From Candidatus Margulisiibacteriota bacterium (GTDB lineage Bacteria; Margulisbacteria; WOR-1; O2-12-FULL-45-9; XYB2-FULL-48-7), in assembly GCA_041658645.1 (NCBI GenBank), contig JBAZZV010000006.1:19486-83485 (forward strand): a stretch of DNA of 64,000 nucleotides, read 5' to 3'. Below are positions 3,900 through 26,949 of the stretch, piece by piece (position 1 is the stretch's first letter; the number at the start of each line of letters is the position of its first letter). A program made the translations under genes and the position numbers. Below the pieces are notes generated by a model, which made no database searches, was not told where the DNA came from, and saw nothing but the letters and a program-made list of their open reading frames with translations.

Positions 3900-5213
3900 A
3901 TGTTCAAGATCAGGCCGAGTTTGATCATCGTTATCAGCTTTTTGCTGGTCATTCTGACCGGCGCCATCCTCCTTTCTCTGCCGCTCGCTTCCTCGCAAGG
4001 GACAACGACCAATTTCCTGGACGCTTACTTCACGGCCAATTCCGCCACCTGCGTGACTGGACTGGTCACGCTCGACACCGGGACCCATTTTTCACTCTTC
4101 GGCAAGATCATTTTGATCCTCCTGATGCAGATCGGCGGCCTCGGTTACATGACCTTTTCGACCTTCATGGTCCTCGTCTTCCGCCACAAACTGTTCATCT
4201 CCCAGAAGCTCGTTATCCAGGAAGCGCTCAACGTCTATTCCAGCCGCGACGTCATCAATGTCCTGCGGCGGATCTTTGGCATCGTCTTTTTCTTTGAGGG
4301 GGTCGGCGCCCTGATCCTCGCCCTCCGCTGGTGGCCGGAGTTCGGCTTACCCAAAGCGATCTTCTGGGGAGTCTTTCACTCGGTCTCGGCCTTTAACAAT
4401 GCCGGTTTCGCCCTGCCGGCTAAATTTGCCAATCTTATCCCTTACGCCACCGATTGGGTCATCAACCTGACAGTTACCACCCTGATCATTTTCGGCGGGC
4501 TCGGCTTTATCGTCATTGCCGATATCCTCCAGCACAAACGCTTTTCCCTCCACTCCAAAGTGGTCATCTTCACCACCCTCTGCCTGCTCATCGGCGGAAC
4601 GATCTTTATCTTCGCCCTGGAACATAACAACCCCAAAACGATCGGGGGAATGAGCCTCCCCCACCAGGCGCTTGCCTCATATTTCCAGGCGGTCACCCCG
4701 CGGACCGCCGGCTTCAACACTATCGATTACGGCAAGATCGTCCCGGCCACCGCCCTCTTCTCGATGTTCCTGATGTTCATCGGGGCAAGCCCCGGCGGCA
4801 CCGGCGGCGGCGTCAAGACCACGACCTTCGCCCTCATCATCATGACGATCGGCGCCACCCTGCGCGGGGCCAAAAACACCATCATGTTCGACCGGCGCGT
4901 GCCGGCCGAAACGGTCCGCCGCGCCTTTGCCATCACCTCCCTCGCCCTGGCCCTCGTCGCGATCGCCGTCTTCGCCCTGAACCAATCGGAAACATTTGGC
5001 CTGACCGAGGTCGCCTTTGAGACTTTTTCCGCTTTCGGCACCGTCGGGCTCTCCATGGGGATCACCCCCTTCTTGAGTTCTCTCGGAAAAATCATCATAA
5101 TAACCGTCATGTTCATCGGGCGGGTCGGCCCGCTGACCCTGATGCTCGCCCTGGCCATGGAACAAAAAGAACCAAAGATCGAAGTTCCGAAGGAGGGAAT
5201 ATCAATCGGATGA
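3900..5213 (+). CDS. ktrB: Ktr/Trk system potassium uptake membrane subunit (KtrB/TrkH family)
   Basis: 437 aa; four MPM repeats with selectivity-filter-like glycine motifs (e.g. GLGY, ATGGGVKTTT). Confidence 0.85.
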   Translation: MFKIRPSLIIVISFLLVILTGAILLSLPLASSQGTTTNFLDAYFTANSATCVTGLVTLDTGTHFSLFGKIILILLMQIGGLGYMTFSTFMVLVFRHKLFISQKLVIQEALNVYSSRDVINVLRRIFGIVFFFEGVGALILALRWWPEFGLPKAIFWGVFHSVSAFNNAGFALPAKFANLIPYATDWVINLTVTTLIIFGGLGFIVIADILQHKRFSLHSKVVIFTTLCLLIGGTIFIFALEHNNPKTIGGMSLPHQALASYFQAVTPRTAGFNTIDYGKIVPATALFSMFLMFIGASPGGTGGGVKTTTFALIIMTIGATLRGAKNTIMFDRRVPAETVRRAFAITSLALALVAIAVFALNQSETFGLTEVAFETFSAFGTVGLSMGITPFLSSLGKIIIITVMFIGRVGPLTLMLALAMEQKEPKIEVPKEGISIG

Positions 5214-5875
5214 AAAAACAATTTGCGGTGCTAGGGATCGGTCGTTTCGGCAGTAAGATCGCCCGGGAGTTATTTTACAAAGGGCAGGAAGTCGTGGCTA
5301 TAGATAAAGACGAGAAGGTGATCGACGACATCAAGGACGAGGTGACCCACGCCTATGTCGGCGACATTACCGATTCGGACGCGCTGAAAGAGGCCGGCGT
5401 AGCCGACTGCGACACGGTCATCATCGCCGAATCCTCGAACATGGAGAGCAATATCATCGCCGCCCAGATCTGCAAGGAGCTGGGGGTCGCCCAGGTGATC
5501 TGCAAAGCGCAGAACACCCTGCACGGCAAGATCCTAGGAAAACTAAGCGTCGACCAGATCGTCTACCCGGAACAGGACACCGCCATCAAGCTGGTCAATA
5601 AGCTGACCAGCCAGGGGGTGCTGGACTATTTTGATATCGGGGAGAATCTAACTATAGTCGGGGCCAAAGCACAGACCGAATGGGTCGGCCGGAAACTCTC
5701 CGACCTTGACCTGCGCAACAAGTTCAACATCACGGTCCTGGCGCTCCGGCGCGGCGGGGAGAATATCGTTATCCCGGCTTGGAGCACGGTCATAGAAAAA
5801 GAGGATACGATCGTCTTCTTCGGCCGCGAGGATTCGCTCAAGAAGATGAACCTCGACATCACCCACCGGACCTAG
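5210..5875 (+). CDS. ktrA: Ktr/Trk system NAD-binding regulatory subunit (KtrA/TrkA)
   Basis: 221 aa; GxGxxG Rossmann motif (GIGRFG), RCK_N and RCK_C domains; 4-nt overlap with ktrB. Confidence 0.85.
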   Translation: MKKQFAVLGIGRFGSKIARELFYKGQEVVAIDKDEKVIDDIKDEVTHAYVGDITDSDALKEAGVADCDTVIIAESSNMESNIIAAQICKELGVAQVICKAQNTLHGKILGKLSVDQIVYPEQDTAIKLVNKLTSQGVLDYFDIGENLTIVGAKAQTEWVGRKLSDLDLRNKFNITVLALRRGGENIVIPAWSTVIEKEDTIVFFGREDSLKKMNLDITHRT

Positions 5876-16375: not shown

Positions 16376-17113
16376 GTGAAAAAGCTTTCGATCTTTTTTA
16401 GTCTGATAACGCTACTTTTGATCACCCTCTACGGCTGTGGCCAACAGAATCAAAGCTCCACCGGCCCGATTTTCACCGACCCCGCGACCAAGCTCGCCGA
16501 ACTGGCCAGCCAGGACTTTACTGTTAAGCTTTTTTACGAGGCGGTGGCGCTGGAGCCGAAGCTGAACCAGGCCGGGGTCCGGGCCAGCATCGGTTTCTGG
16601 TCGCGCTCGCCCAACCGGGACAATCTGGTCGTCCTCCTGAACACGATCAACGCTTACGTCTCAACCGAAACCTATCGGGCGATCTGGGATGAAGGGACGA
16701 CAACCGCTACCGCCCAGCAGTATCCCTCTTACATCACCATGAACAAGGAATACTGGTATGAGCGCGCTTATCCGTTAAGCGACGGGACAGTTTCGATCGA
16801 AGGGGCCCACTACGCCGACCCGCATCCGGTCACGACGCTCGAGGCGGACCTGATCTGGGGAGCTTATTCCCAGCGCTACACCGACACAGCCAAACTGATC
16901 CGGCAGGCGACCGGCATTACGGTCGAATCGTGGTGTTTTGTTCAGGGTGCGCGGGCGCCAAGAATATTCTACGCTTTCGAATTGCCCGAATTAGTCTCGC
17001 TGGAAGCAACCGGGGATGTCTACGTCCATTTCGCTACGACTTATGAAGCCAGTTGGTTAAACGCGAGCCAGTGGATAACAGGGACAACGAATGCCCCGAC
17101 GCCGGAGCCGTAG
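16376..17113 (+). CDS. Lipoprotein of unknown function (full-length copy); GTG start 6 nt after TATAAT
   Basis: MKKLSIFFSLITLLLITLYGCGQ lipobox; TATAAT 16364-16369. Confidence 0.7.
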   Translation: MKKLSIFFSLITLLLITLYGCGQQNQSSTGPIFTDPATKLAELASQDFTVKLFYEAVALEPKLNQAGVRASIGFWSRSPNRDNLVVLLNTINAYVSTETYRAIWDEGTTTATAQQYPSYITMNKEYWYERAYPLSDGTVSIEGAHYADPHPVTTLEADLIWGAYSQRYTDTAKLIRQATGITVESWCFVQGARAPRIFYAFELPELVSLEATGDVYVHFATTYEASWLNASQWITGTTNAPTPEP

Positions 17114-17136: not shown

Positions 17137-17826
17137 TTACTTTCCTGTCGTTTGTAGTGTAAGAATTATTTCTTGCGCCTCTTTCTCACGCATAACCAAA
17201 TGCGCCTTTGACCATTCCAGGGCCGCAATAATGGCCTTCTTCCAGGGTTTAGGCAATTCTTCATAGTAATCAATGATTAGTCGTTTGTCACTCGCCGTTA
17301 GCGCGAGTATCGCATGTTCAAGGTCTTTGCGTTTCTTATCTGTATTCTTTCTTCTGGCCGCGATTAACAGCTTGTGTAGTCCAAAACAAACCATATTCGG
17401 GACCAAAACATCAATGCTCTGTTCTTTTACCCATACCGGATTTTTAAAAAGGATATCAACAAATCGTAAAGGGATCGCCTTAATGCTTAGGTTCCTGACC
17501 TCTTTCGCCCCAACCTCTCCCCGACCCCTTTCCGGAGTCAAGAACTCTACTTTTAGATCTGTCCCCCACATATAGATCGAACCATCTGAATTAAACCCGG
17601 TTTTGAAACCCAATGGGGCCAACAACGCAGCAATATCAATTTTATTTTTGGCTTTATATGGGCTGGGGATAAGAAAATCAATATCTACAGTCCTAAAAGG
17701 ATACGCTTTCACGCCAAAATGTTTCTGATAAAGAAGAAAACACCAGCTACCGATCAACTCGACACCCTCATCCCATAAGCCGTTTTCCTGAAATACTCGC
17801 AATATTTTATGAACAATGCCGATCAT
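17137..17826 (-). CDS. Nucleotidyltransferase-fold protein (AbiEii/GSU2403-like putative toxin)
   Basis: 229 aa; ...FRTVDIDFLIP... NTase-like segment; ATGA overlap with upstream small gene. Confidence 0.5.
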   Translation of the reverse strand: MIGIVHKILRVFQENGLWDEGVELIGSWCFLLYQKHFGVKAYPFRTVDIDFLIPSPYKAKNKIDIAALLAPLGFKTGFNSDGSIYMWGTDLKVEFLTPERGRGEVGAKEVRNLSIKAIPLRFVDILFKNPVWVKEQSIDVLVPNMVCFGLHKLLIAARRKNTDKKRKDLEHAILALTASDKRLIIDYYEELPKPWKKAIIAALEWSKAHLVMREKEAQEIILTLQTTGK

Positions 17827-18128
17827 TTTTGCTTTTTTCTGCCTTTTGTTCTATTTAATATCTTGATCATTTCCTTTGTTTTTTTTAATTCCTTTATCAA
17901 TTTCATCCTTTCGTTTATTTTCTCCTTTATTTCCTCCGGCTCATCCTTTCCCAGGTATTTGTGAACCACTTTCGGCCCTCTCCTGACTTGAAGATAATAA
18001 TAATTCTTTCCGCCGATTTTCCTCTTCTTGACGCTCCCTTTAGGCAGGCGCCCTAAACGGGCGATGATCTTTTTCTCAGTCTGGAGATAATAATCCATGC
18101 TTTCCTTTAAGATATCTTTTAAAACCAT
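17823..18128 (-). CDS. Small basic partner protein of the NTase gene (putative antitoxin/regulator)
   Basis: Start MVLKDIL preceded by AGGAGG; KIGGKNYYYLQVRRG motif; 5' part of the six-frame ORF up to 18248 is probably untranslated. Confidence 0.45.
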   Translation of the reverse strand: MVLKDILKESMDYYLQTEKKIIARLGRLPKGSVKKRKIGGKNYYYLQVRRGPKVVHKYLGKDEPEEIKEKINERMKLIKELKKTKEMIKILNRTKGRKKQK

Positions 18129-18140
18129 CACACGCCTCCT

Positions 18141-18180
18141 TACACTACATTTGTAGATTATATCGGCTTTGTAGTGTAAT
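18141..18180 (-). promoter_or_regulatory. Palindromic operator TTACACTACA...TGTAGTGTAA flanking a TATAAT -10 box upstream of the NTase-partner operon; a second copy of the same inverted repeat lies at 17123-17165 just past the operon stop
   Basis: Minus-strand reading ttacactacaaagccgaTATAATctacaaatgtagtgtaAGGAGGcgtgtgATG. Confidence 0.5.
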
Positions 18181-18263
18181 AGCAAGCGGCTATTCAATCG
18201 GCTGCTTATTGCCCAACAAATATCAAAATATGGTATTTTGTTGGGCAACTAGCGTTAAGCGGT

Positions 18264-18461
18264 TTGCGTTTCGAATCGTGGTGTTTTGTCCAGGGTGCGC
18301 GGGCGCCAAGAATATTCTACGCTTTCGAATTGCCCGAATTAGTCTCGCTGGAAGCAACCGGGGATGTCTACGTCCATTTCGCTACGACTTATGAAGCCAG
18401 TTGGTTAAACGCGAGCCAGTGGATAACAGGGACAACGAATGTTCCGGCTCCGGAACCCTAG
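18264..18461 (+). pseudogene. C-terminal duplicate (65 codons) of lipoprotein gene 16376-17113
   Basis: 18262-18461 ~97 % identical to 16921-17113. Confidence 0.75.
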
Positions 18462-19246: not shown

Positions 19247-19630
19247 CTAGTTTTCCGTCGCGCCTAAATAAGCGAACGATTGTGGCGGGCATATGCCATA
19301 CTTGGATTTAATATCATACGACTCTTCATACTTAATATAATTTTTTATTTTAATCGCATATCCGGTTTCCTTCCCGCAAAAATAGTCATGAAAATAATCC
19401 ATTGATATTCCCGCGAACATTTTAGTGTTTTCCCACAAAGAATGTAAATCATCTGATATTATTGATTCTATTTCGAATTCCCCGATCACCCTCCCCACTG
19501 GTGCTGACGCGTAAACGACGACTCGATTTACGCCCTTCCTTTTAAATATCGCTCGCCTAAATTCATACTTTTTTTCCCCGCAAAATATCTTGTCAGCATA
19601 TTCCGGCTTAATGGATAATAATACTTTCAT
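19247..19630 (-). CDS. ASCH (PUA-like) domain protein
   Basis: MKVLLSIKPEYADKIFCGEKKYEFRR... matches ASCH N-terminal consensus; low-GC; 23-nt overlap with upstream PIN gene. Confidence 0.65.
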   Translation of the reverse strand: MKVLLSIKPEYADKIFCGEKKYEFRRAIFKRKGVNRVVVYASAPVGRVIGEFEIESIISDDLHSLWENTKMFAGISMDYFHDYFCGKETGYAIKIKNYIKYEESYDIKSKYGICPPQSFAYLGATEN

Positions 19631-21134
19631 TTGTTTTCGTCTCCTTTAGGATTAGATTAAGTTGATCTTTGCTAATTCGTGCAAACCCCCTTGGCGCCGA
19701 ATCAATATCTTTTATAATTTTTAAGTCTATTAGCTCCTTCAGGTTTAATCGCCTAGGGAATGAGTATGCACAAAGGAAATATACTACAAATGGGCGCCTC
19801 CCAGGGTTATAGTTCCACCATCCTGACAGCTCCTCTCGCGTAAATACACTTCGCTTCCCACACAATTCAATAAATCTTTCTTCATTTTCGATGTTGTCCT
19901 TCACCCCTTCGATTATACCGATTGTAGTAATTACAGACTTGAAATATCCCCCGGTTCTATAGAATACGATTAAGTCCCCTCTTCTTATGTTCCTTTCGAT
20001 TGATCTGCTTATGTAAACCTTACTAATCGCGTTACGAAATGGCTTGTCACCTTCGTAGTCCTCGGGCAATTCTGTTCGAAGGATCGAATCAGGCAAGAGA
20101 GTGGTATGATATTCTGGATATATTGGAGTGATAAATATATTATTGTCTGCCGAAATATAAGGGAAAGTAATTTTGGGCGCAGTGGGATTAAACTTTGGCG
20201 TAAAATCACGCACACACACCTCCTCCACGTCCCTGCAACTTGATGATTTTTTGTAACCATAATGATTGAAACCGAATTTCCTTAATAATTCTTTCAATCT
20301 CAACCTTTCAATACGCTCGTCGCAAATAGTCACATATATTTCTTCGGCCTTAAATAGTAGCGCGTGGTCAAAGACAATTTTCAAGAACCGTTCTCCCAAA
20401 TTAAACCCATTTGCGGCCACCTTAAATGTGCCGATTTTTAATCTTTTTTTACTGGCAAAAGCCGGTTCGATATCCGGGTATTTTTCCCCCTTATTCTCTA
20501 TTTTGATGTATAAAAAAGCTAATATTTTCTCATCCTGCATACAAACATACGCATCATCTTCTGATTTTCTATTAAACCAATCATCGAATCCGGGATAATC
20601 TTGTCTTAATGAATCAAAAAATTCATCTCTAATGTTTAAGTTGCCGAAATGCTCTTTTCTTACAGATAAAACCTTATAATTTATCAATGATGGATTCTCA
20701 GCTCTGACTCTTGCCAAAAACCCATCGATTGTAAAAACCGATGATGCTAGGCCAAGCCGGATCGCCTTATCATGAACACCACCATCTTCACTAATTAACA
20801 GGTCGACCCTTTTATTCATCAACTCATTCAACAACAAAGAATCATTAGTATCATTCTCGTTTTTGTCTAGCGGGAAACAGAGAGATTCAATCAATGGGTG
20901 GATAGGCGCTTTAGTTCGTAATACCGTATAACTTCCCAGCTTAATAAGAAAAGCTTTTACTGTTTTTGGGTCACGATGTTTTTCAATTTCCTCAACCGAA
21001 AGTGGGTGCGCACATTTAACAAAGTGCAAATCATCAAGCCATTTGAATAAAATGCCGATATCTGGGTCGACTGGGGTCGTTGCCTCTCGATGAATGATAA
21101 TATTCGTATCGAGTAAGACTTTTTTCCCTGTCAT
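19608..21134 (-). CDS. Multidomain protein: N-terminal PIN nuclease, central GNAT-like acetyltransferase, C-terminal PUA-like (ASCH/EVE-like) region
   Basis: VLLDTNIIIHRE + downstream acidic residues (PIN); ...ILAFLYIKIEN...RLKIGTFKVAANGFNLGERFLKIVFDHA...LLRKFGF (GNAT-like); RGDLIVFYRTGGYFKSVITTIGIIEGV (PUA-like); ~38 % GC. Confidence 0.55.
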   Translation of the reverse strand: MTGKKVLLDTNIIIHREATTPVDPDIGILFKWLDDLHFVKCAHPLSVEEIEKHRDPKTVKAFLIKLGSYTVLRTKAPIHPLIESLCFPLDKNENDTNDSLLLNELMNKRVDLLISEDGGVHDKAIRLGLASSVFTIDGFLARVRAENPSLINYKVLSVRKEHFGNLNIRDEFFDSLRQDYPGFDDWFNRKSEDDAYVCMQDEKILAFLYIKIENKGEKYPDIEPAFASKKRLKIGTFKVAANGFNLGERFLKIVFDHALLFKAEEIYVTICDERIERLRLKELLRKFGFNHYGYKKSSSCRDVEEVCVRDFTPKFNPTAPKITFPYISADNNIFITPIYPEYHTTLLPDSILRTELPEDYEGDKPFRNAISKVYISRSIERNIRRGDLIVFYRTGGYFKSVITTIGIIEGVKDNIENEERFIELCGKRSVFTREELSGWWNYNPGRRPFVVYFLCAYSFPRRLNLKELIDLKIIKDIDSAPRGFARISKDQLNLILKETKTNESIIIH

Positions 21135-21209
21135 TTATAGCCGAATTCTACGCTCTTTACAGGAAATAGCAAGCTCGGCCCTGAGTTCTATTGACAAGCA
21201 AATATAGCG

Positions 21210-21989
21210 GTGGGAGAATCTCCCCTGAACCTATTTTTGGGTAATAACATGACAAAGAACAAAAGAGCGTTTAAATTTCTTAGCGATTACATTAGACATT
21301 TAGAAAATGTAATTGATGAGAATGGACTAACCTTATTTCGGGGATTGGGCAAGGACTACCCTCTAGTACCTCGAATTGCAAGGATATTACTTAAAAACCC
21401 TCTTACAGCGACAGAAAATAGAATGATGAGGGATTTTCAATTAAAAAGCAGACCCTTCTTATCTATTGTTCCAAATTCTAGCTGGGATTGGTTAGCCTTG
21501 GCCCAACATCATGGATTACCAACCAGGTTAATGGACTGGACTAACAATCCGCTTGCCGCGTTATGGTTTGCCGTAAAGGATCCTCCTATAAATAATAATG
21601 ATGGCATTGTTTGGATGTTCAACGTCAATAAAGCTGATGTCCTTTCAGAAGACGAGAAAAAAACACTTAGCCCCAATCGTAACGGTCAAACAAGAATTTT
21701 TCAGCCAAACCATATCGCCGACCGCATTGCGAACCAAGGCGCATGGTTCACGGTCCATAAGTATAATTTTAGTAGAACGACACATAACGGATTTGTCCCA
21801 TTAGAGAACATGAAACGATATAAGCACTGTTTGACGCGATACCGAATTCCAGCAAAATATTTTTATGACATTCGATTTCATCTCGACTTGTGTGGTTTTA
21901 ACCATGCGTCATTATTCCCTGGGTTAGACGGCCTATGTAAACATTTATCTTGGTATCATTCTCTGCTAGAAGATGAAATAGACAAGTAA
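21210..21989 (+). CDS. FRG-domain protein
   Basis: LFRGLGKDYPLVPRIAR and AQHHGLPTRLMDWTNNPLAALWFA match FRG hallmarks (YRGQ...L.PS..R; QHYGLPTRLLDWT); low-GC; divergent from PIN gene. Confidence 0.7.
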   Translation: MGESPLNLFLGNNMTKNKRAFKFLSDYIRHLENVIDENGLTLFRGLGKDYPLVPRIARILLKNPLTATENRMMRDFQLKSRPFLSIVPNSSWDWLALAQHHGLPTRLMDWTNNPLAALWFAVKDPPINNNDGIVWMFNVNKADVLSEDEKKTLSPNRNGQTRIFQPNHIADRIANQGAWFTVHKYNFSRTTHNGFVPLENMKRYKHCLTRYRIPAKYFYDIRFHLDLCGFNHASLFPGLDGLCKHLSWYHSLLEDEIDK

Positions 21990-22436: not shown

Positions 22437-22919
22437 TCAGAAATAAATGTGCACGCCGAGATTGCTGTTCAGGAAATAAAGCCAGGTCGTCCGGCTCCCG
22501 GCCGACATCTGGCTAAGGTAAGTGGCGAAAAATACCTTGCCGTCCAGCGCGACATGATCGTTAATAAAGACCTCGCCGCCGACAAAAGGATTGAACGCCA
22601 CCCGGTCAAAAGAGACGCCGGCACTAGAGCCCTGATTGTCCTGGACCGTCGTGCCGATCTCGAGCAGGGTGTTCGGATAGACCTCGCGAACATAAAAAAG
22701 CCCCAGCGCGAGGTTGTCAATATTGCTGTCAGCCTGGCCGCTCTGCGTGCTGTTAGAGTAAAAGACGCTAAGATCTAACCCAAAATTGTTGTTCACGAAG
22801 CCCCGAACACTTAAAGAGGTAGCCCGCAGGCCGACCCCGGTCTTGCCGCCCAGCTCCAGCGCCAGCGACGTGCCGGCCAGTAACGTGACCAGGAGCAGAA
22901 GCAAACACGCTTTTTTCAT
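22437..22919 (-). CDS. Small outer-membrane β-barrel protein (paralog 1)
   Basis: Signal peptide MKKACLLLLLVTLLAGTSLA; C-terminal ...HIYF. Confidence 0.6.
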   Translation of the reverse strand: MKKACLLLLLVTLLAGTSLALELGGKTGVGLRATSLSVRGFVNNNFGLDLSVFYSNSTQSGQADSNIDNLALGLFYVREVYPNTLLEIGTTVQDNQGSSAGVSFDRVAFNPFVGGEVFINDHVALDGKVFFATYLSQMSAGSRTTWLYFLNSNLGVHIYF

Positions 22920-22929
22920 GAATTTCTCC

Positions 22930-23415
22930 CTATAAATAAATGTGCGCGCCGAGCTCGCCGGTCAGGACGTTAAGCGCAGTCGACCTGGACCCGGCTTCCA
23001 TCTGGCTGCTGTAAGCGCCAAAGAAGACCTTGCCGTCCAGTCCAACGTGGTCATTGATAAAGCACTCCGCTCCGATGAACGGATCGAGCTCGAGGCCGCT
23101 GTAAAAGGTGCCGGCATCGTACCCCTGCCACCCCAGCACATTCACGCCGATCTCAAGCAGTGTATTGGGGTAGATCTCCCACGCCCTAAAACAGCCGAGC
23201 GAATAATCGTATTCGGTGCTGTCCTGCTGGCCGCTCCGGGTCCTGTTAAAATAACTGGCCGTTACATCGAAGCCCAGATTATTGTTCACGAAGCGCCGGA
23301 CCGAAAAGCCGCTAACCTGCAGGCCGAGCCCGGTTTTACCGCCAAGCTCCATCGCCATCGACATGCCGGCCAGCAACGTAACCAGGAGCAGAAGCAAACC
23401 TGCCTTTTTCATCAA
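22930..23415 (-). CDS. Small outer-membrane β-barrel protein (paralog 2, tandem duplicate)
   Basis: ~50 % identical to the neighbour; signal peptide; C-terminal ...HIYL. Confidence 0.6.
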   Translation of the reverse strand: MMKKAGLLLLLVTLLAGMSMAMELGGKTGLGLQVSGFSVRRFVNNNLGFDVTASYFNRTRSGQQDSTEYDYSLGCFRAWEIYPNTLLEIGVNVLGWQGYDAGTFYSGLELDPFIGAECFINDHVGLDGKVFFGAYSSQMEAGSRSTALNVLTGELGAHIYL

Positions 23416-24744: not shown

Positions 24745-24880
24745 TGTCCTAGCCATCGAAACATCATGCGACGAGACCTCCGCTTCTGTAGTAAAAGACG
24801 GGAGCGAAGTTTTGTCGAACGTCATCTCTTCCCAGGTCGAATTCCACAAAAAATACGGCGGGATCGTGCCGGTGGTTTGC
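24745..24880 (+). pseudogene. Degenerate duplicate of the tsaD 5' end (first ~45 codons)
   Basis: ~75 % nt identity to 25912-26046, ending in the identical 22-mer aaatacggcgggatcgtgccgg. Confidence 0.7.
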
Positions 24881-24948: not shown

Positions 24949-25503
24949 ATGATCTCCCTGAAATCAGAAATAACACAGCAAGTATTGAACTATTTTTTCC
25001 TGAACCCGCAGGAAAGCCTTTATATCAATGAGCTGGCCAGGCAGCTTTCCCTTGACAAAAGGAACCTGGTAAAAAAGATCAAAGAGCTGGAAAATGATGG
25101 TCTTTTGATCAGCTGGTCGCGCGGCAATCTGAAGCTTTACGCCATTAACCGAAAGTTCCCCTTATACAAGGAGTACAAAAACATTGTGCTCAAAACAGTC
25201 GGCTTTGAAAAAGAACTTAAAGACGTTCTTAAAGGAACGGCCGGCGCCGAGAAAGCCTATATTTACGGCTCATATGCGAGGGATAAAATGGACGCTCACA
25301 GCGACATTGATCTTCTGGTTATCGGCAACCACGGGGTTGTTCTGCTGCAAAGAAAGATTTCACGCCTCCAGAAAAAAATTGGCCGTGAAATAAATGCCGT
25401 GAATATGAGCGCCGGGGAGTTCAGGAAACGCAGGGCAAACCAAGACCCTTTCCTTCAAAACATTTTAAAAAACAAATATATTGAGATCAAAAATGAAATT
25501 TGA
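24949..25503 (+). CDS. Minimal nucleotidyltransferase (MNT-type) with N-terminal wHTH
   Basis: GSYARD...SDIDLLVIG NTase motif; AT-rich. Confidence 0.7.
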   Translation: MISLKSEITQQVLNYFFLNPQESLYINELARQLSLDKRNLVKKIKELENDGLLISWSRGNLKLYAINRKFPLYKEYKNIVLKTVGFEKELKDVLKGTAGAEKAYIYGSYARDKMDAHSDIDLLVIGNHGVVLLQRKISRLQKKIGREINAVNMSAGEFRKRRANQDPFLQNILKNKYIEIKNEI

Positions 25504-25897
25504 TAACAAATATTTCAGCCAGCATGATTTCCCCAAGGCGCAGATCGAGAAAAACCTTGGCAATGCCATTAAAGACTTGAATATCGCTAAAAAAGACAAT
25601 ATTTTAGATGTAAAATTTAATTACGCTTACTCCGCCCTATTAAAAACCGGCCTCACTTTATTGAGCCAACAACAGATCAAAATAAAAAGCGCGCCCGGAC
25701 ATCACATCAAGATCATTGAAGCAATGGCTGAATTATTAAAAGATGATTCGATCGCTGACGTTGGGAACGCCATGCGTTCAAAGCGAAACATTGATATGTA
25801 TTCCGGCGGCATTGAAGTCACCAAAAAGGAATGCGAGGAATATATTGATTTTGTTGATAAGATTGTTGTTCAAGTAAAAGCTTTTCTCGCTTTTTAA
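25493..25897 (+). CDS. HEPN-domain protein, partner of the MNT
   Basis: Overlaps the MNT gene by 11 nt; α-helical ~135 aa with MRSKRNIDMY segment. Confidence 0.55.
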   Translation: MKFDNKYFSQHDFPKAQIEKNLGNAIKDLNIAKKDNILDVKFNYAYSALLKTGLTLLSQQQIKIKSAPGHHIKIIEAMAELLKDDSIADVGNAMRSKRNIDMYSGGIEVTKKECEEYIDFVDKIVVQVKAFLAF

Positions 25898-25899
25898 AT

Positions 25900-26949
25900 A
25901 TGCTTATCCTCGCCATCGAAACCTCCTGCGACGAAACCGCGGCGGCCGTGGTCCGTGACGGCCAGGCCGTCCTCTCGAGCGTCATCTCCTCCCAGATCGA
26001 TTTCCACCGGAAATACGGCGGGATCGTGCCGGAGGTCGCCGCCCGGAAACATATCGAGGTCATAACGCCGGTCATCCAGGAGGCGATTTCAATCGCCGGT
26101 GTCGGCTTTAAGGAGATCGACGCCGTCGCCGTCACTTACGGCCCCGGCCTGATCGGTTCGCTGATCGTCGGCCTCTCCGCCGCCAAAGCGATCGCCTGGT
26201 CACTTGGCAAACCACTGATCGGAGTGAACCACCTTGAGGGTCACATCTACGCTAACTTCTTAACTTCCAACTTCAAACCTCAAACTTCAAAACAAATTAT
26301 AAATCCAAAATCAGAAATTCCAAACTTTCCATTCATTTGTCTTCTGGTCTCCGGCGGCCACACCATGATAATAAAAGTGAATGGTCACGGGCAGTACGAA
26401 ACCATTGGGCGGACTCGCGATGACGCCGCGGGGGAAGCTTTCGACAAGGTCGCCCGTTTTCTCAAACTCGGTTACCCCGGCGGCCCAATCATCGATAAAT
26501 TAGCTAAAGAAGGAAACCCCAAGGCAATTAACTTTACCCGCCCTATGCTAAATGATGGGTACGACTTCTCGTTTAGCGGGATCAAGACTGCTGTAGTCAA
26601 CTTTGGTACCAGGTACCAGGTACCAGGTACCAGGGTCGAAGATGTCGCAGCGTCGTTCCAGCAAGCCGTCGTCGACGTCCTAGTCGAGAAGACAGTCCGG
26701 GCCGCGCTTGACCACGGTTGCCGGACGGTTACAATCGCCGGCGGGGTCTCGGCTAACTCCCAGCTCCGCCAGGAGCTAATGACCAAAGGCAAAGCAGCCG
26801 GACTCAACGTCATCATCCTACCGTTCGAGTACTGCACCGACAACGCCGCCATGATCGCCTGCGCCGGTTATTACAAATTCATTAATTCGTCATTAGACAT
26901 TAGTCATTCGTCATTTTCCCTAGCCCCCGTTGCCAGTCTCAAGTTGTAG
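25900..26949 (+). CDS. tsaD: tRNA N6-adenosine threonylcarbamoyltransferase TsaD, carrying three in-frame repeat insertions
   Basis: [31 protein letters not shown]-terminal CTDNAAMIA; inserts at 26258-26335, 26609-26636, 26873-26905. Confidence 0.85.
   Translation: MLILAIETSCDETAAAVVRDGQAVLSSVISSQIDFHRKYGGIVPEVAARKHIEVITPVIQEAISIAGVGFKEIDAVAVTYGPGLIGSLIVGLSAAKAIAWSLGKPLIGVNHLEGHIYANFLTSNFKPQTSKQIINPKSEIPNFPFICLLVSGGHTMIIKVNGHGQYETIGRTRDDAAGEAFDKVARFLKLGYPGGPIIDKLAKEGNPKAINFTRPMLNDGYDFSFSGIKTAVVNFGTRYQVPGTRVEDVAASFQQAVVDVLVEKTVRAALDHGCRTVTIAGGVSANSQLRQELMTKGKAAGLNVIILPFEYCTDNAAMIACAGYYKFINSSLDISHSSFSLAPVASLKL
26258..26335. repeat. Family-2 dispersed repeat (single arm) inserted in-frame in tsaD
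   Basis: cttccaacttcaaacctcaaacttcaaaacaaattataaatccaaaatc...; relatives at 34646-34720 and 58655-58790. Confidence 0.6.
26873..26905. repeat. Family-1 repeat arm (cgtcattagacattagtcattcgtcatt) forming the 3' end of tsaD
   Basis: Similar to 648-765 and 46744-46783. Confidence 0.55.

What the first reader, a model, noticed from the sequence alone, without database searches (positions are those of the whole stretch)
19247..21989. Low-GC island encoding ASCH + PIN/GNAT/PUA-like + FRG proteins: candidate RNA-acetylation-based conflict or defense module
A ~2.8 kb block at ~38 % GC sits in a ~57 % GC backbone. It holds (i) a standalone ASCH-domain gene that overlaps by 23 nt (ii) a 508-aa protein combining an N-terminal PIN nuclease, a central GNAT-like acetyltransferase and a C-terminal PUA-like region, and (iii) a divergently transcribed FRG-domain protein. 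ASCH/PUA-like domains are proposed readers or hydrolases of N4-acetylcytidine, GNAT toxins acetylate aminoacyl-tRNAs, and PIN domains cleave RNA. FRG domains are enriched in defense islands. A writer/reader/nuclease combination on one operon plus FRG is not a described system as far as I can recall.
Basis: partly seen in the sequence, partly recalled or inferred. Interest (0 to 1): 0.8.

Follow-up and report, generated by a model that had tools for sequence, protein, structure and literature searches.

The report
Known PIN-GNAT-PUA/ASCH defence-candidate cassette
The low-GC block holds a real, widespread two-gene module (a PIN–GNAT-like–PUA-like protein translationally coupled to a small ASCH protein) that is already catalogued as the untested phage-defence candidate PDC-M11, while the neighbouring FRG gene is a separate single-gene candidate that only happens to sit next to it.

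Summary
There are three intact ORFs at the stated coordinates, a 23-nt overlap, and a block at 38.7% GC. The backbone is about 53% GC, not 57%.

The two genes are strictly linked: 78 of 78 related loci with room carry the ASCH gene, and 57 of 80 have the same 23-nt overlap. The same overlap occurs on a Pseudomonas plasmid, an E. coli phage and an archaeal virus.

FRG is not part of the system. It was found in 0 of 81 loci, and the reciprocal check found the pair in 0 of 6 FRG loci. It is PADLOC PDC-S15, with an ADP-ribosyltransferase-like fold.

The novelty claim fails. The PIN-GNAT-PUA + ASCH operon was described by Iyer 2013, Matelska 2017 and Bell 2020, and is PADLOC PDC-M11. A PIN-less phage homolog pair is annotated GevT toxin / GevA antitoxin.

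"RNA acetylation" remains unproven, because the GNAT lacks the canonical acetyl-CoA motif A. The most likely reading is a toxin–antitoxin-like defence cassette. This is a new member of a known, uncharacterised kind.

The parts
19608..21134 (-). Gene A: 508-aa PIN-GNAT-like-PUA-like protein (PADLOC PDC-M11A; the 'PIN-GNAT-EVE' protein of Bell et al.)
   Evidence: ORF. PDC-M11A HMM match at 1.3e-202 over the full length. More than 5,000 homologs at 55-63% identity across bacterial and archaeal phyla. AF2 model with pLDDT 81.7.
20685..21134 (-). PIN domain (about residues 1-150), VapC-type, predicted active
20181..20684 (-). GNAT-fold domain (about residues 151-318) with a non-canonical cofactor motif
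19608..20180 (-). C-terminal PUA-like (EVE/ASCH-type) domain (about residues 319-508, plus stop codon). Includes the invariant PEYHTxLxPDSILxTE motif (residues 340-355), most of which lies in the low-confidence linker
19247..19630 (-). Gene B: 127-aa standalone ASCH protein (PDC-M11B; ZmASCH subfamily; 50% identical to phage 'GevA antitoxin')
   Evidence: PDC-M11B at 8e-50. Pfam ASCH. The family profile hits ZmASCH at E 1.2e-21. K20, E23, R25 (invariant) and G18 (at least 90%) form the GxKxxExR motif; Y40 (=ZmASCH Y47) and Q117 (=Q127) are also invariant. BLASTP against GevA gives 4e-45.
19608..19630 (-). 23-nt A/B overlap with a GGAG Shine-Dalgarno inside the end of A: translational coupling
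   Evidence: Junction sequence. An exact 23-nt overlap occurs in 57 of 80 loci, and some overlap in 75 of 80. The same 23 nt is seen in E. coli phage PhiR47_2, a Pseudomonas plasmid and archaeal virus psiM100.
21135..21248 (.). Divergent intergenic region with promoter-like sites for A-B (21172->21145, - strand) and for FRG (21191-21219, + strand)
   Evidence: Consensus scan only; not evidence of function.
21249..21989 (+). FRG-domain protein (PADLOC PDC-S15). An independent single-gene neighbour, not part of the A-B system. An alternative GTG start lies at 21210

Best explanation
The block holds two unrelated sets of mobile conflict genes placed side by side.

(1) The first is a two-gene, toxin-antitoxin-like defence cassette of the (PIN)-GNAT-EVE + ASCH type, which PADLOC calls PDC-M11. 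Gene A encodes the effector or toxin. It has a VapC-type PIN nuclease with an intact active site, a GNAT-fold domain whose cofactor motif is non-canonical, and a PUA-like domain that probably docks the protein onto a base or nucleotide in single-stranded nucleic acid, most likely RNA (tRNA or rRNA). Gene B encodes a ZmASCH-type ASCH protein. It is made in fixed proportion to A through a conserved 23-nt overlap and keeps A harmless. It may do this by binding A, or by acting on the same nucleic-acid substrate. When infection disturbs this balance, A damages RNA and aborts the infection.

(2) The divergently transcribed FRG gene is a separate single-gene candidate effector (PDC-S15). It has an ADP-ribosyltransferase-like fold and probably consumes NAD+.

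Shown here: the domain folds, the conserved catalytic residues, the strict A-B linkage and coupling, the mobility, the restriction-modification-rich neighbourhoods, and the independence of FRG.

Inferred: that A is toxic, that B neutralises it, that RNA is the target, and what the trigger is.
For: Identity:
- PDC-M11A at 1.3e-202, PDC-M11B at 8e-50 and PDC-S15 at 1.2e-81.

Folds:
- PIN residues D9, E49, D98 and D117 are invariant.

Linkage:
- ASCH lies downstream in 78 of 78 loci with room.
- The 23-nt overlap is exact in 57 of 80 loci, and recurs in a phage, a plasmid and an archaeal virus.

Toxin-antitoxin logic:
- Homologs in E. coli phage PhiR47_2 are annotated 'GevT toxin' and 'GevA antitoxin'. 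They sit directly after cI, which I recognise from my own knowledge as the lambda rexAB slot. A is 35% identical to GevT and B is 50% identical to GevA.
- In alpha-proteobacterial plasmids the ASCH gene, often annotated as HTH-containing, lies upstream of A, as a classic antitoxin does (PMC5499597, PMC7641849).

RNA link:
- The PIN is VapC-like.
- ZmASCH binds ssRNA and ssDNA and cleaves ssRNA in vitro (PMC5615036). Its cleft residues Y47 and Q127 are invariant in B.
- B resembles the C-terminal domain of an L22-fusion protein (NCBIfam PRK12279, 9e-12).

Mobility and defence context:
- The cassette is AT-richer than its flanks in 44 of 50 loci.
- The commonest neighbour families are ResIII, HsdS, HNH, N6_Mtase, SWI2/SNF2 and GmrSD.
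- The window's own neighbours include PDC-M05 and an NTP_transf_8 pair.

FRG:
Against: - No experiment on any PIN-containing member was found. PDC-M11 is explicitly one of '145 untested' candidates.
- The GevT/GevA toxin/antitoxin labels are a depositor's annotation. No paper behind them is in the searchable library.
- Gene order here is toxin first, which is atypical for type II toxin-antitoxin systems.
- B's nucleic-acid cleft is invariant, which is not needed for a simple protein-binding antitoxin.
- Many loci are lone cassettes among housekeeping genes.
- Whether the GNAT-like domain is catalytic cannot be decided from sequence.
- The A-B physical interaction could not be modelled.
Confidence: 0.55

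Rival explanations
1. Write/erase acetylation system, which is the first reader's idea without FRG. The GNAT-like domain acetylates a nucleic-acid base (for example cytidine N4) or aminoacyl-tRNA. The fused PUA-like domain targets or reads the mark. The PIN cleaves marked or unmarked RNA. The ASCH protein is an amidohydrolase 'eraser' antitoxin. The logic resembles DarT/DarG.
For: - Many invariant residues in the GNAT-like domain (K211, E213, E217, Y219, Y267, T269, R249) are too conserved for a dead scaffold.
- B's pocket and cleft residues are invariant, which suits an enzyme or substrate binder.
- PIN-less GNAT-EVE proteins are annotated as the toxin, so the toxicity would lie in the GNAT-PUA part.
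- Iyer et al. 2013 proposed nucleic-acid acetylation, as cited in PMC5499597 and PMC7641849.
Against: - The canonical acetyl-CoA pyrophosphate motif A is absent in 40 of 40 homologs (PMC5499597).
- The position where many GNATs carry a tyrosine in the 'YxxxGF' motif (my recollection of the family) is Leu (L284) here.
- B is in the ZmASCH subfamily, whose only reported activity is nucleic-acid binding and RNase. A PDB profile search at E<=10 found no ac4C amidohydrolase.
- No acetylated substrate is known.
Confidence: 0.2
2. Modification-dependent restriction-like sensor. The two PUA-like domains (in A and in B) recognise modified bases in invading phage DNA or RNA and direct the PIN nuclease to it, as a companion to type I restriction-modification systems.
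For: - EVE, SRA and ASCH domains read modified bases, and PIN-GNAT-EVE is associated with type I R-M (PMC7641849).
- HsdS, HsdR, N6_Mtase and GmrSD are among the nearest neighbours.
- Bell et al. note ASCH-HsdS fusions in Methanohalophilus.
Against: - VapC-type PINs are RNases, not DNases.
- PIN-less forms exist and are carried by phages themselves, in the lysogeny region.
- Most loci are not next to R-M genes.
- This reading gives the GNAT-like domain no role.
Confidence: 0.12
3. Three-gene ASCH + PIN/GNAT/PUA + FRG module acting together, as the finding was written.
For: - The genes are adjacent, divergently transcribed and similarly low in GC (0.38-0.39) in this genome.
- The same arrangement appears in other contigs of the same population.
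Against: - None of 81 A-B loci from other organisms carries an FRG homolog within up to 5-10 kb.
- None of 6 FRG-homolog loci carries A-B.
- PADLOC models them as separate candidates, M11 and S15.
Confidence: 0.03
4. B is the effector, an ASCH ribonuclease like ZmASCH in vitro, and A is its regulator or targeting subunit. Alternatively, the pair is a housekeeping RNA-turnover or RNA-modification factor.
For: - ZmASCH degrades ssRNA in a Mg-dependent manner (PMC5615036).
- Its residue Y47 is invariant in B and S128 is conserved in most members.
Against: - K53 of ZmASCH is not conserved in B.
- The phage homolog of B is annotated as the antitoxin.
- The patchy cross-domain distribution, low GC, and phage and plasmid carriage argue against housekeeping.
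- A carries its own intact nuclease.
Confidence: 0.07

Closest known systems
PADLOC phage-defence candidate PDC-M11 (cassette CAS_00069, Payne et al. 2024 preprint), which is the '(PIN)-GNAT-EVE + ASCH' operon of Bell, Wolf & Koonin 2020 and the PIN_15/PIN_17 operons of Matelska et al. 2017
   Same: Both proteins match the PDC-M11 A and B models over their full length. The domain order PIN-GNAT-PUA, the second PUA-like ASCH gene and the association with restriction-modification all agree.
   Different: Nothing essential differs. This copy comes from a Margulisiibacteriota MAG and has no AAA_17 ATPase or HTH fusion. The kind itself is only predicted and has not been tested experimentally.
GevT/GevA pair of lambdoid E. 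coli phages (GenBank PV340567.1 annotation; present in 275 of 5,426 complete E. coli genomes)
   Same: GevT aligns to A residues 157-508 at 35% identity. GevA is 50% identical to B. Gene order and the 23-nt overlap are the same.
   Different: GevT has no PIN domain. The pair is phage-borne and sits directly after cI, which I recognise from my own knowledge as the lambda rexAB slot. The toxin/antitoxin labels come from the database record only; no paper was found.
ZmASCH (Zymomonas mobilis ASCH protein; PDB 5GUQ, 5GUS, 5Y6B, 5Y6C)
   Same: The B family profile matches it at E 1.2e-21 over the whole domain. Y47 and Q127 are invariant in B, and S128 is conserved in most members. ZmASCH-like genes on plasmids lie next to A-type genes.
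   Different: ZmASCH was studied in isolation as an ssRNA RNase, and no operon partner was considered. K53 is not conserved in B. Whether the Zymomonas gene has an A-type neighbour was not tested.
VapBC (PIN toxin with VapB antitoxin) and GNAT/RHH toxin-antitoxin systems (TacAT, AtaRT, KacAT)
   Same: VapC-like PIN fold with four conserved acidic residues. GNAT fold. Two-gene, mobile, toxin-antitoxin-like organisation.
   Different: The PIN and GNAT are fused in one 508-aa protein together with a PUA-like domain. The partner is an ASCH protein, not an RHH, AbrB or DUF1778 antitoxin. GNAT motif A is missing. The partner gene lies downstream.
FRG domain proteins (Pfam PF08867; PADLOC PDC-S15; assigned to the ART superfamily by Aravind and colleagues, PMC9503650)

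Membership tests
PADLOC PDC-M11 / (PIN)-GNAT-EVE + ASCH operon | Large protein matches the PDC-M11A profile over its full length | tested here: met
   PDLC04422 at 1.3e-202, residues 5-508 against profile positions 2-501 of 501
PADLOC PDC-M11 / (PIN)-GNAT-EVE + ASCH operon | Adjacent same-strand ASCH gene matching PDC-M11B | tested here: met
   PDLC04425 at 8.2e-50. There is a 23-nt overlap. The ASCH gene is present in 78 of 78 related loci with room.
PADLOC PDC-M11 / (PIN)-GNAT-EVE + ASCH operon | Domain order: N-terminal PIN, central GNAT fold, C-terminal PUA-like (EVE) domain | tested here: met
PADLOC PDC-M11 / (PIN)-GNAT-EVE + ASCH operon | Association with restriction-modification or defence loci (the basis of 'guilt by embedding') | tested here: met
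   The top neighbour families are ResIII, Methylase_S, HNH_5, N6_Mtase, SWI2_SNF2, HSDR_N and GmrSD_N. Many loci are solitary, however. No background control was run.
PADLOC PDC-M11 / (PIN)-GNAT-EVE + ASCH operon | Anti-phage activity | not testable with these tools
   The source describes these candidates as untested.
GevTA (phage toxin-antitoxin, as annotated in PV340567.1) | Homology of both partners, plus the same gene order and overlap | tested here: met
   35% identity at 2e-55 and 50% identity at 4e-45. The overlap is 23 nt.
GevTA (phage toxin-antitoxin, as annotated in PV340567.1) | Same domain composition (GNAT-EVE only) | tested here: not met
   The window protein has an extra N-terminal PIN domain of about 150 aa. 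GevT aligns only from residue 157.
GevTA (phage toxin-antitoxin, as annotated in PV340567.1) | Toxicity of the large protein and neutralisation by the ASCH protein | not testable with these tools
   Only the database annotation is available; no paper was found.
Catalytically canonical GNAT acetyltransferases (including the tRNA-acetylating toxins TacT, AtaT and KacT) | Acetyl-CoA pyrophosphate-binding motif A, R/Q-x-x-G-x-G/A, at the beta4-alpha3 junction | tested here: not met
   Absent at that site in 40 of 40 homologs; the invariant N-G-x-[RK]-[LI]-G-E-R is there instead. Pfam Acetyltransf_1 matches only 1 of 40. Also noted in PMC5499597.
Catalytically canonical GNAT acetyltransferases (including the tRNA-acetylating toxins TacT, AtaT and KacT) | RHH/DUF1778-type antitoxin partner | tested here: not met
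   The partner is an ASCH protein.
VapBC toxin-antitoxin | PIN fold with the conserved acidic tetrad | tested here: met
VapBC toxin-antitoxin | Stand-alone PIN toxin with an upstream VapB-type antitoxin | tested here: not met
   The PIN is the N-terminal domain of a 508-aa fusion. Upstream lies the divergent FRG gene.
YqfB-type ASCH N4-acetylcytidine amidohydrolases | Specific sequence relationship of the ASCH protein to YqfB-type enzymes | tested here: inconclusive
   The B-family profile searched against all PDB sequences at E<=10 returned ZmASCH and three PUA-like hypothetical proteins, with no amidohydrolase. That a YqfB structure is in the PDB is from my memory. B carries E23 in the GxKxxExR motif.
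FRG / PDC-S15 | Pfam FRG domain above the gathering score, and a PDC-S15 profile match | tested here: met
   87.3 bits against a cutoff of 25. PDLC04938 at 1.2e-81.
FRG / PDC-S15 | ADP-ribosyltransferase-superfamily fold | tested here: met
Three-gene ASCH + PIN-GNAT-PUA + FRG system (as proposed) | Co-conservation of FRG with the A-B pair | tested here: not met
   0 of 81 A-B loci, and 0 of 6 FRG-homolog loci.

The most novel reading that the evidence does not exclude
The PIN-GNAT-PUA / ASCH pair is a write-and-erase toxin-antitoxin system for nucleic-acid acylation. The atypical GNAT would use an acyl donor, through its invariant N-G-x-[RK]-x-G-E-R motif, to mark RNA or aminoacyl-tRNA. The ZmASCH-type partner would remove or mask the mark. 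The PIN would destroy marked RNA during infection. This would be a DarTG-like logic based on acylation, and the first function assigned to prokaryotic ZmASCH-type proteins.
Probability: 0.15. Interest if true: 0.75.

Novelty: new member of a known kind. Interest (0 to 1): 0.3.

Why it matters
The locus is a textbook copy of a very widespread cassette. There are more than 5,000 homologs, found in bacteria, archaea, plasmids, and bacterial and archaeal viruses. The PIN-less version is in about 5% of complete E. coli genomes. The biochemistry is still unknown.

Three results here are useful leads for whoever tests PDC-M11/GevTA:
- The small partner belongs to the same family as the crystallised, RNA-binding ZmASCH.
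- The 23-nt translational overlap is conserved across domains of life.
- The GNAT cofactor motif is systematically replaced by another invariant motif.

For the genome scan itself, the finding is not a new system. The FRG link is coincidental.

Tried and rejected
I switched to the metagenome scan with an alignment.
- Sequence-profile searches of PDB with the whole A family and with the GNAT domain alone found nothing meaningful. The GNAT assignment therefore rests on fold only.
- hhalign of A's C-terminal domain against B showed no similarity. I dropped the idea that the two PUA-like domains are recent paralogs.
- Searches for 'GevT', 'GevA' and 'GNAT-EVE' found no experimental study. Iyer et al. 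2013 (PMC3763556) is not held in the library.
- I looked for direct repeats bounding the M11+FRG block, like those around the two neighbouring cassettes. None was found.
- Rfam and tandem-repeat scans for an RNA antitoxin found nothing.
- Pfam, PADLOC and PHROGs on the extra gene inserted between A and B in L074 and L078 gave no match.
- I considered and rejected membership in the TacT/AtaT-type GNAT toxin-antitoxin systems and in VapBC, because the partner and the architecture are wrong.
- I considered and rejected a housekeeping tRNA ac4C writer/eraser role, because of the patchy mobile distribution and the low GC.
Full report
**Observation.** The three ORFs exist as described. They are a 127-aa ORF at 19247-19630(-), a 508-aa ORF at 19608-21134(-) that overlaps it by 23 nt, and a divergent FRG ORF at 21210-21989(+). 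The FRG gene more probably starts at the ATG at 21249. That start gives the 246-aa protein that NCBI annotates, and it follows a promoter-like site at 21191-21219. The block is 38.7% GC. The whole window is 52.2%, and 53.2% once its three low-GC cassettes are removed. The contrast is real, but the "57% backbone" is too high. No Rfam family or tandem array lies in the block.

**Domain content of the 508-aa protein (A).** Pfam on the window protein alone finds only a sub-threshold EVE match. Across 40 homologs, PIN_3 matches 34, EVE matches 28 and Acetyltransf_1 matches 1. An AlphaFold2 model built on a 40-sequence alignment has mean pLDDT 81.7.
- Foldseek agrees.

- The PIN acidic tetrad (D9, E49, D98, D117) is invariant, so an active nuclease is expected.
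- The GNAT-like domain lacks the canonical acetyl-CoA motif A (R/Q-x-x-G-x-G/A) at the beta4-alpha3 junction in all 40 sequences. It carries an invariant N-G-x-[RK]-[LI]-G-E-R instead.
- A profile of this domain finds no solved GNAT by sequence.

Matelska et al. made the same point about motif A and concluded that the domain is probably not an acetyltransferase (PMC5499597). However, many charged and aromatic residues in the domain are invariant, so it is unlikely to be a dead scaffold. That last point is my inference.

**The 127-aa protein (B).** It passes Pfam ASCH. A profile of 34 homologs hits the crystallised Zymomonas mobilis ASCH protein (PDB 5GUQ and its mutants) at E 1.2e-21 over the full domain. 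ZmASCH binds ssDNA and ssRNA and cleaves ssRNA in vitro in a Mg-dependent way. Its residues Tyr47, Lys53 and Ser128 contribute to this (PMC5615036).
- In the B family, Y40 (=Y47), Q117 (=Q127), and K20, E23 and R25 of the GxKxxExR motif are invariant; G18 of that motif is at least 90% conserved.
- S118 (=S128) is mostly kept.
- K53 is not conserved.

The PDB profile search returned no N4-acetylcytidine amidohydrolase. The "ac4C eraser" idea therefore has no specific homology support. A's C-terminal PUA-like domain and B show no profile-profile similarity, so the system contains two distinct PUA-like modules.

**Co-conservation.** The A family has more than 5,000 database relatives at 55-63% identity. 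They span many bacterial phyla and archaea, and the window's copy is from a Margulisiibacteriota MAG.
- In 81 related loci, an ASCH homolog lies downstream of A in all 78 loci that have room. It is on the same strand as A in 77 of them and on the opposite strand in one, L054.
- The A/B overlap is exactly 23 nt in 57 of 80 loci, and some overlap exists in 75 of 80. There is a GGAG Shine-Dalgarno, and the B start codon sits inside A's last codons.
- The same 23-nt overlap occurs in an E. coli lambdoid phage, a Pseudomonas conjugative plasmid and the archaeal virus psiM100.
- By contrast, no FRG homolog occurs in any of the 81 loci.
- The loci of FRG's closest homologs lack the A-B pair. They sit next to an integrase, next to a type I R-M system, or among housekeeping genes.
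- FRG next to A-B is seen only in contigs of the same population.

FRG is therefore an independent neighbour.

**Context and mobility.**
- The cassette is AT-richer than its flanks in 44 of 50 loci, by 6.7 points on average.
- It occurs on plasmids (33 records) and in phages (16 records).
- It has PHROG families, all of unknown function.
- Among the 150 ORFs nearest to the pair in about 60 loci, the commonest Pfam families are ResIII, Methylase_S, HNH_5, DEAD, N6_Mtase, SWI2_SNF2, N6_N4_Mtase, HSDR_N and GmrSD_N.
- One homolog lies in an R-M/nuclease island, while others are lone insertions among housekeeping genes.
- In the window, the block sits in a 9-kb stretch with two other low-GC two-gene cassettes. 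These are an NTP_transf_8 pair and a PDC-M05 MNT/HEPN-like pair.

**What is already known.** PADLOC-DB models match at 1.3e-202 (PDC-M11A), 8e-50 (PDC-M11B) and 1.2e-81 (FRG = PDC-S15). PDC-M11 is cassette CAS_00069, with 293 copies in RefSeq. It is one of 145 explicitly untested candidates found embedded in BREX, DISARM or type I R-M systems.

The architecture itself was described earlier, in three places:
- Iyer et al. 2013, as cited by the two papers below.
- Matelska et al. [quoted passage not shown]
- Bell, Wolf & Koonin 2020: "(PIN)-GNAT-EVE" operons that almost always carry an ASCH gene, are linked to type I R-M, and are predicted to be toxin-antitoxin or defence systems. They state that none of the modules has been characterised experimentally.

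A PIN-less homolog pair in E. coli phage PhiR47_2 is annotated "GevT toxin / GevA antitoxin". It sits immediately after cI; that this position corresponds to lambda's rexAB is my own knowledge.
- A residues 157-508 are 35% identical to GevT, and B is 50% identical to GevA.
- That pair is present in 275 of 5,426 complete E. coli genomes, where RefSeq still calls it "hypothetical protein | ASCH domain-containing protein".
- I found no paper behind the Gev names.
- On alpha-proteobacterial plasmids the ZmASCH-like gene, often annotated as HTH-containing, lies directly upstream of the A-type gene. This is the classic antitoxin position.

**Mechanism.** Best supported is a mobile, toxin-antitoxin-like defence cassette (confidence 0.55 for the full statement; identity as PDC-M11 is about 0.95).
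- A is the effector. It has an active VapC-like PIN, an atypical GNAT-fold domain and a PUA-like nucleic-acid or base-binding domain, and it most probably acts on RNA.
- B is co-translated in fixed ratio and restrains A.
- Because B's nucleic-acid cleft is invariant from archaeal viruses to E. coli phages, B probably acts on or competes for the substrate, and does not merely bind A. This is my inference.

The rivals are:
- an acylation write/erase system (0.2)
- a modification-dependent restriction-like sensor (0.12)
- B as the RNase effector, or a housekeeping role (0.07)
- the three-gene module as originally proposed (0.03)

**Verdict.** The observation and the domain predictions are right. 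The FRG linkage and the novelty claim are wrong. The acetylation mechanism is unproven and is weakened by the missing motif A. This is a new member of a known, computationally described but biochemically uncharacterised kind. Interest is 0.3.

Noticed in passing
window 16923-17113 and 18271-18461, flanking 17137-18248: A low-GC (0.37-0.42) two-gene cassette sits on the - strand: an NTP_transf_8 nucleotidyltransferase (229 aa) plus a 141-aa partner. It is bracketed by a 191-nt direct repeat at 96% identity that duplicates the 3' end of the gene at 16376-17113. There is no integrase. It looks like a cassette insertion that regenerated the end of the target gene. A contig of the same population (L094) ends about 20 nt before the second repeat copy would begin.
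   Followed up: partly
window 24747-24876 and 25907-26036, flanking 24949-25897: A second low-GC cassette, a PADLOC PDC-M05 pair (HTH + MntA-like nucleotidyltransferase of 184 aa, and a 138-aa partner matching PDC-M05B), is bracketed by a diverged 130-nt repeat at 76% identity. The second copy of the repeat is the 5' end of tsaD. This is the same insertion signature as the NTP_transf_8 cassette. The M11+FRG block has no such repeat.
   Followed up: partly
L074 1490-2614 and L078 2503-3441: In two metagenomic loci, a 312-374-aa gene with a C-terminal transmembrane helix is inserted between the A and B genes, making a three-gene variant. The two inserted proteins are homologous to each other and have no Pfam, PADLOC or PHROG match.
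   Followed up: partly
window 20070-20117 (A residues 340-355), - strand: The invariant motif P-E-Y-H-T-x-L-x-P-D-S-I-L-x-T-E lies at the boundary between the GNAT-like and PUA-like domains. Most of it falls in the only low-confidence segment of the model (343-367). It is also conserved in phage GevT. It could be a flexible catalytic or substrate loop.
   Followed up: no
L085 (E. coli phage PhiR47_2, PV340567.1) 3983-5411: The PIN-less homolog pair (GevT/GevA) sits directly downstream of cI, before kil-gam-bet, which I recognise as the slot lambda uses for rexAB. The same DNA, at 99% identity or more, is in 275 of 5,426 complete E. coli genomes, including many O157:H7 strains.
   Followed up: partly
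L093 (Methanothermobacter phage psiM100) 3498-5343: ORFD of psiM100 is a full PIN-GNAT-PUA protein, and ORF5 is its ASCH partner, with the same 23-nt overlap. The annotated 'inserted fragment IFa' ends inside ORFD, whereas ORF5 is shared with phage psiM2. The insertion therefore seems to have created or replaced most of gene A.
   Followed up: no
window 19247-19630 (protein B): B matches the C-terminal 'unknown domain' of NCBIfam PRK12279 (50S ribosomal protein L22/unknown domain fusion protein) at 9e-12. This hints that this ASCH subfamily can work at the ribosome.
   Followed up: no
L087 8396-8887: A Macro-domain gene (an ADP-ribose-processing family) lies 1.6 kb from an FRG homolog, on the opposite strand. 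This is of possible interest given FRG's ART-like fold, but it was seen only once.
   Followed up: no
window 22437-22919 and 22930-23415: Two tandem paralogous 160-aa genes, which look like small outer-membrane or beta-barrel proteins with signal peptides, lie next to an NlpE-domain gene (a 199-nt repeat at 77% identity). They are native GC and unrelated to the finding.
   Followed up: no
L092 (Pseudomonas plasmid NZ_CP087161.1) 3479-6111: This is a four-gene variant: a small ATP-binding protein, a PIN-less GNAT-PUA protein, ASCH (with the 23-nt overlap), and a second small GNAT that weakly resembles the GNAT region of PDC-M11A (E 4e-4).
   Followed up: no
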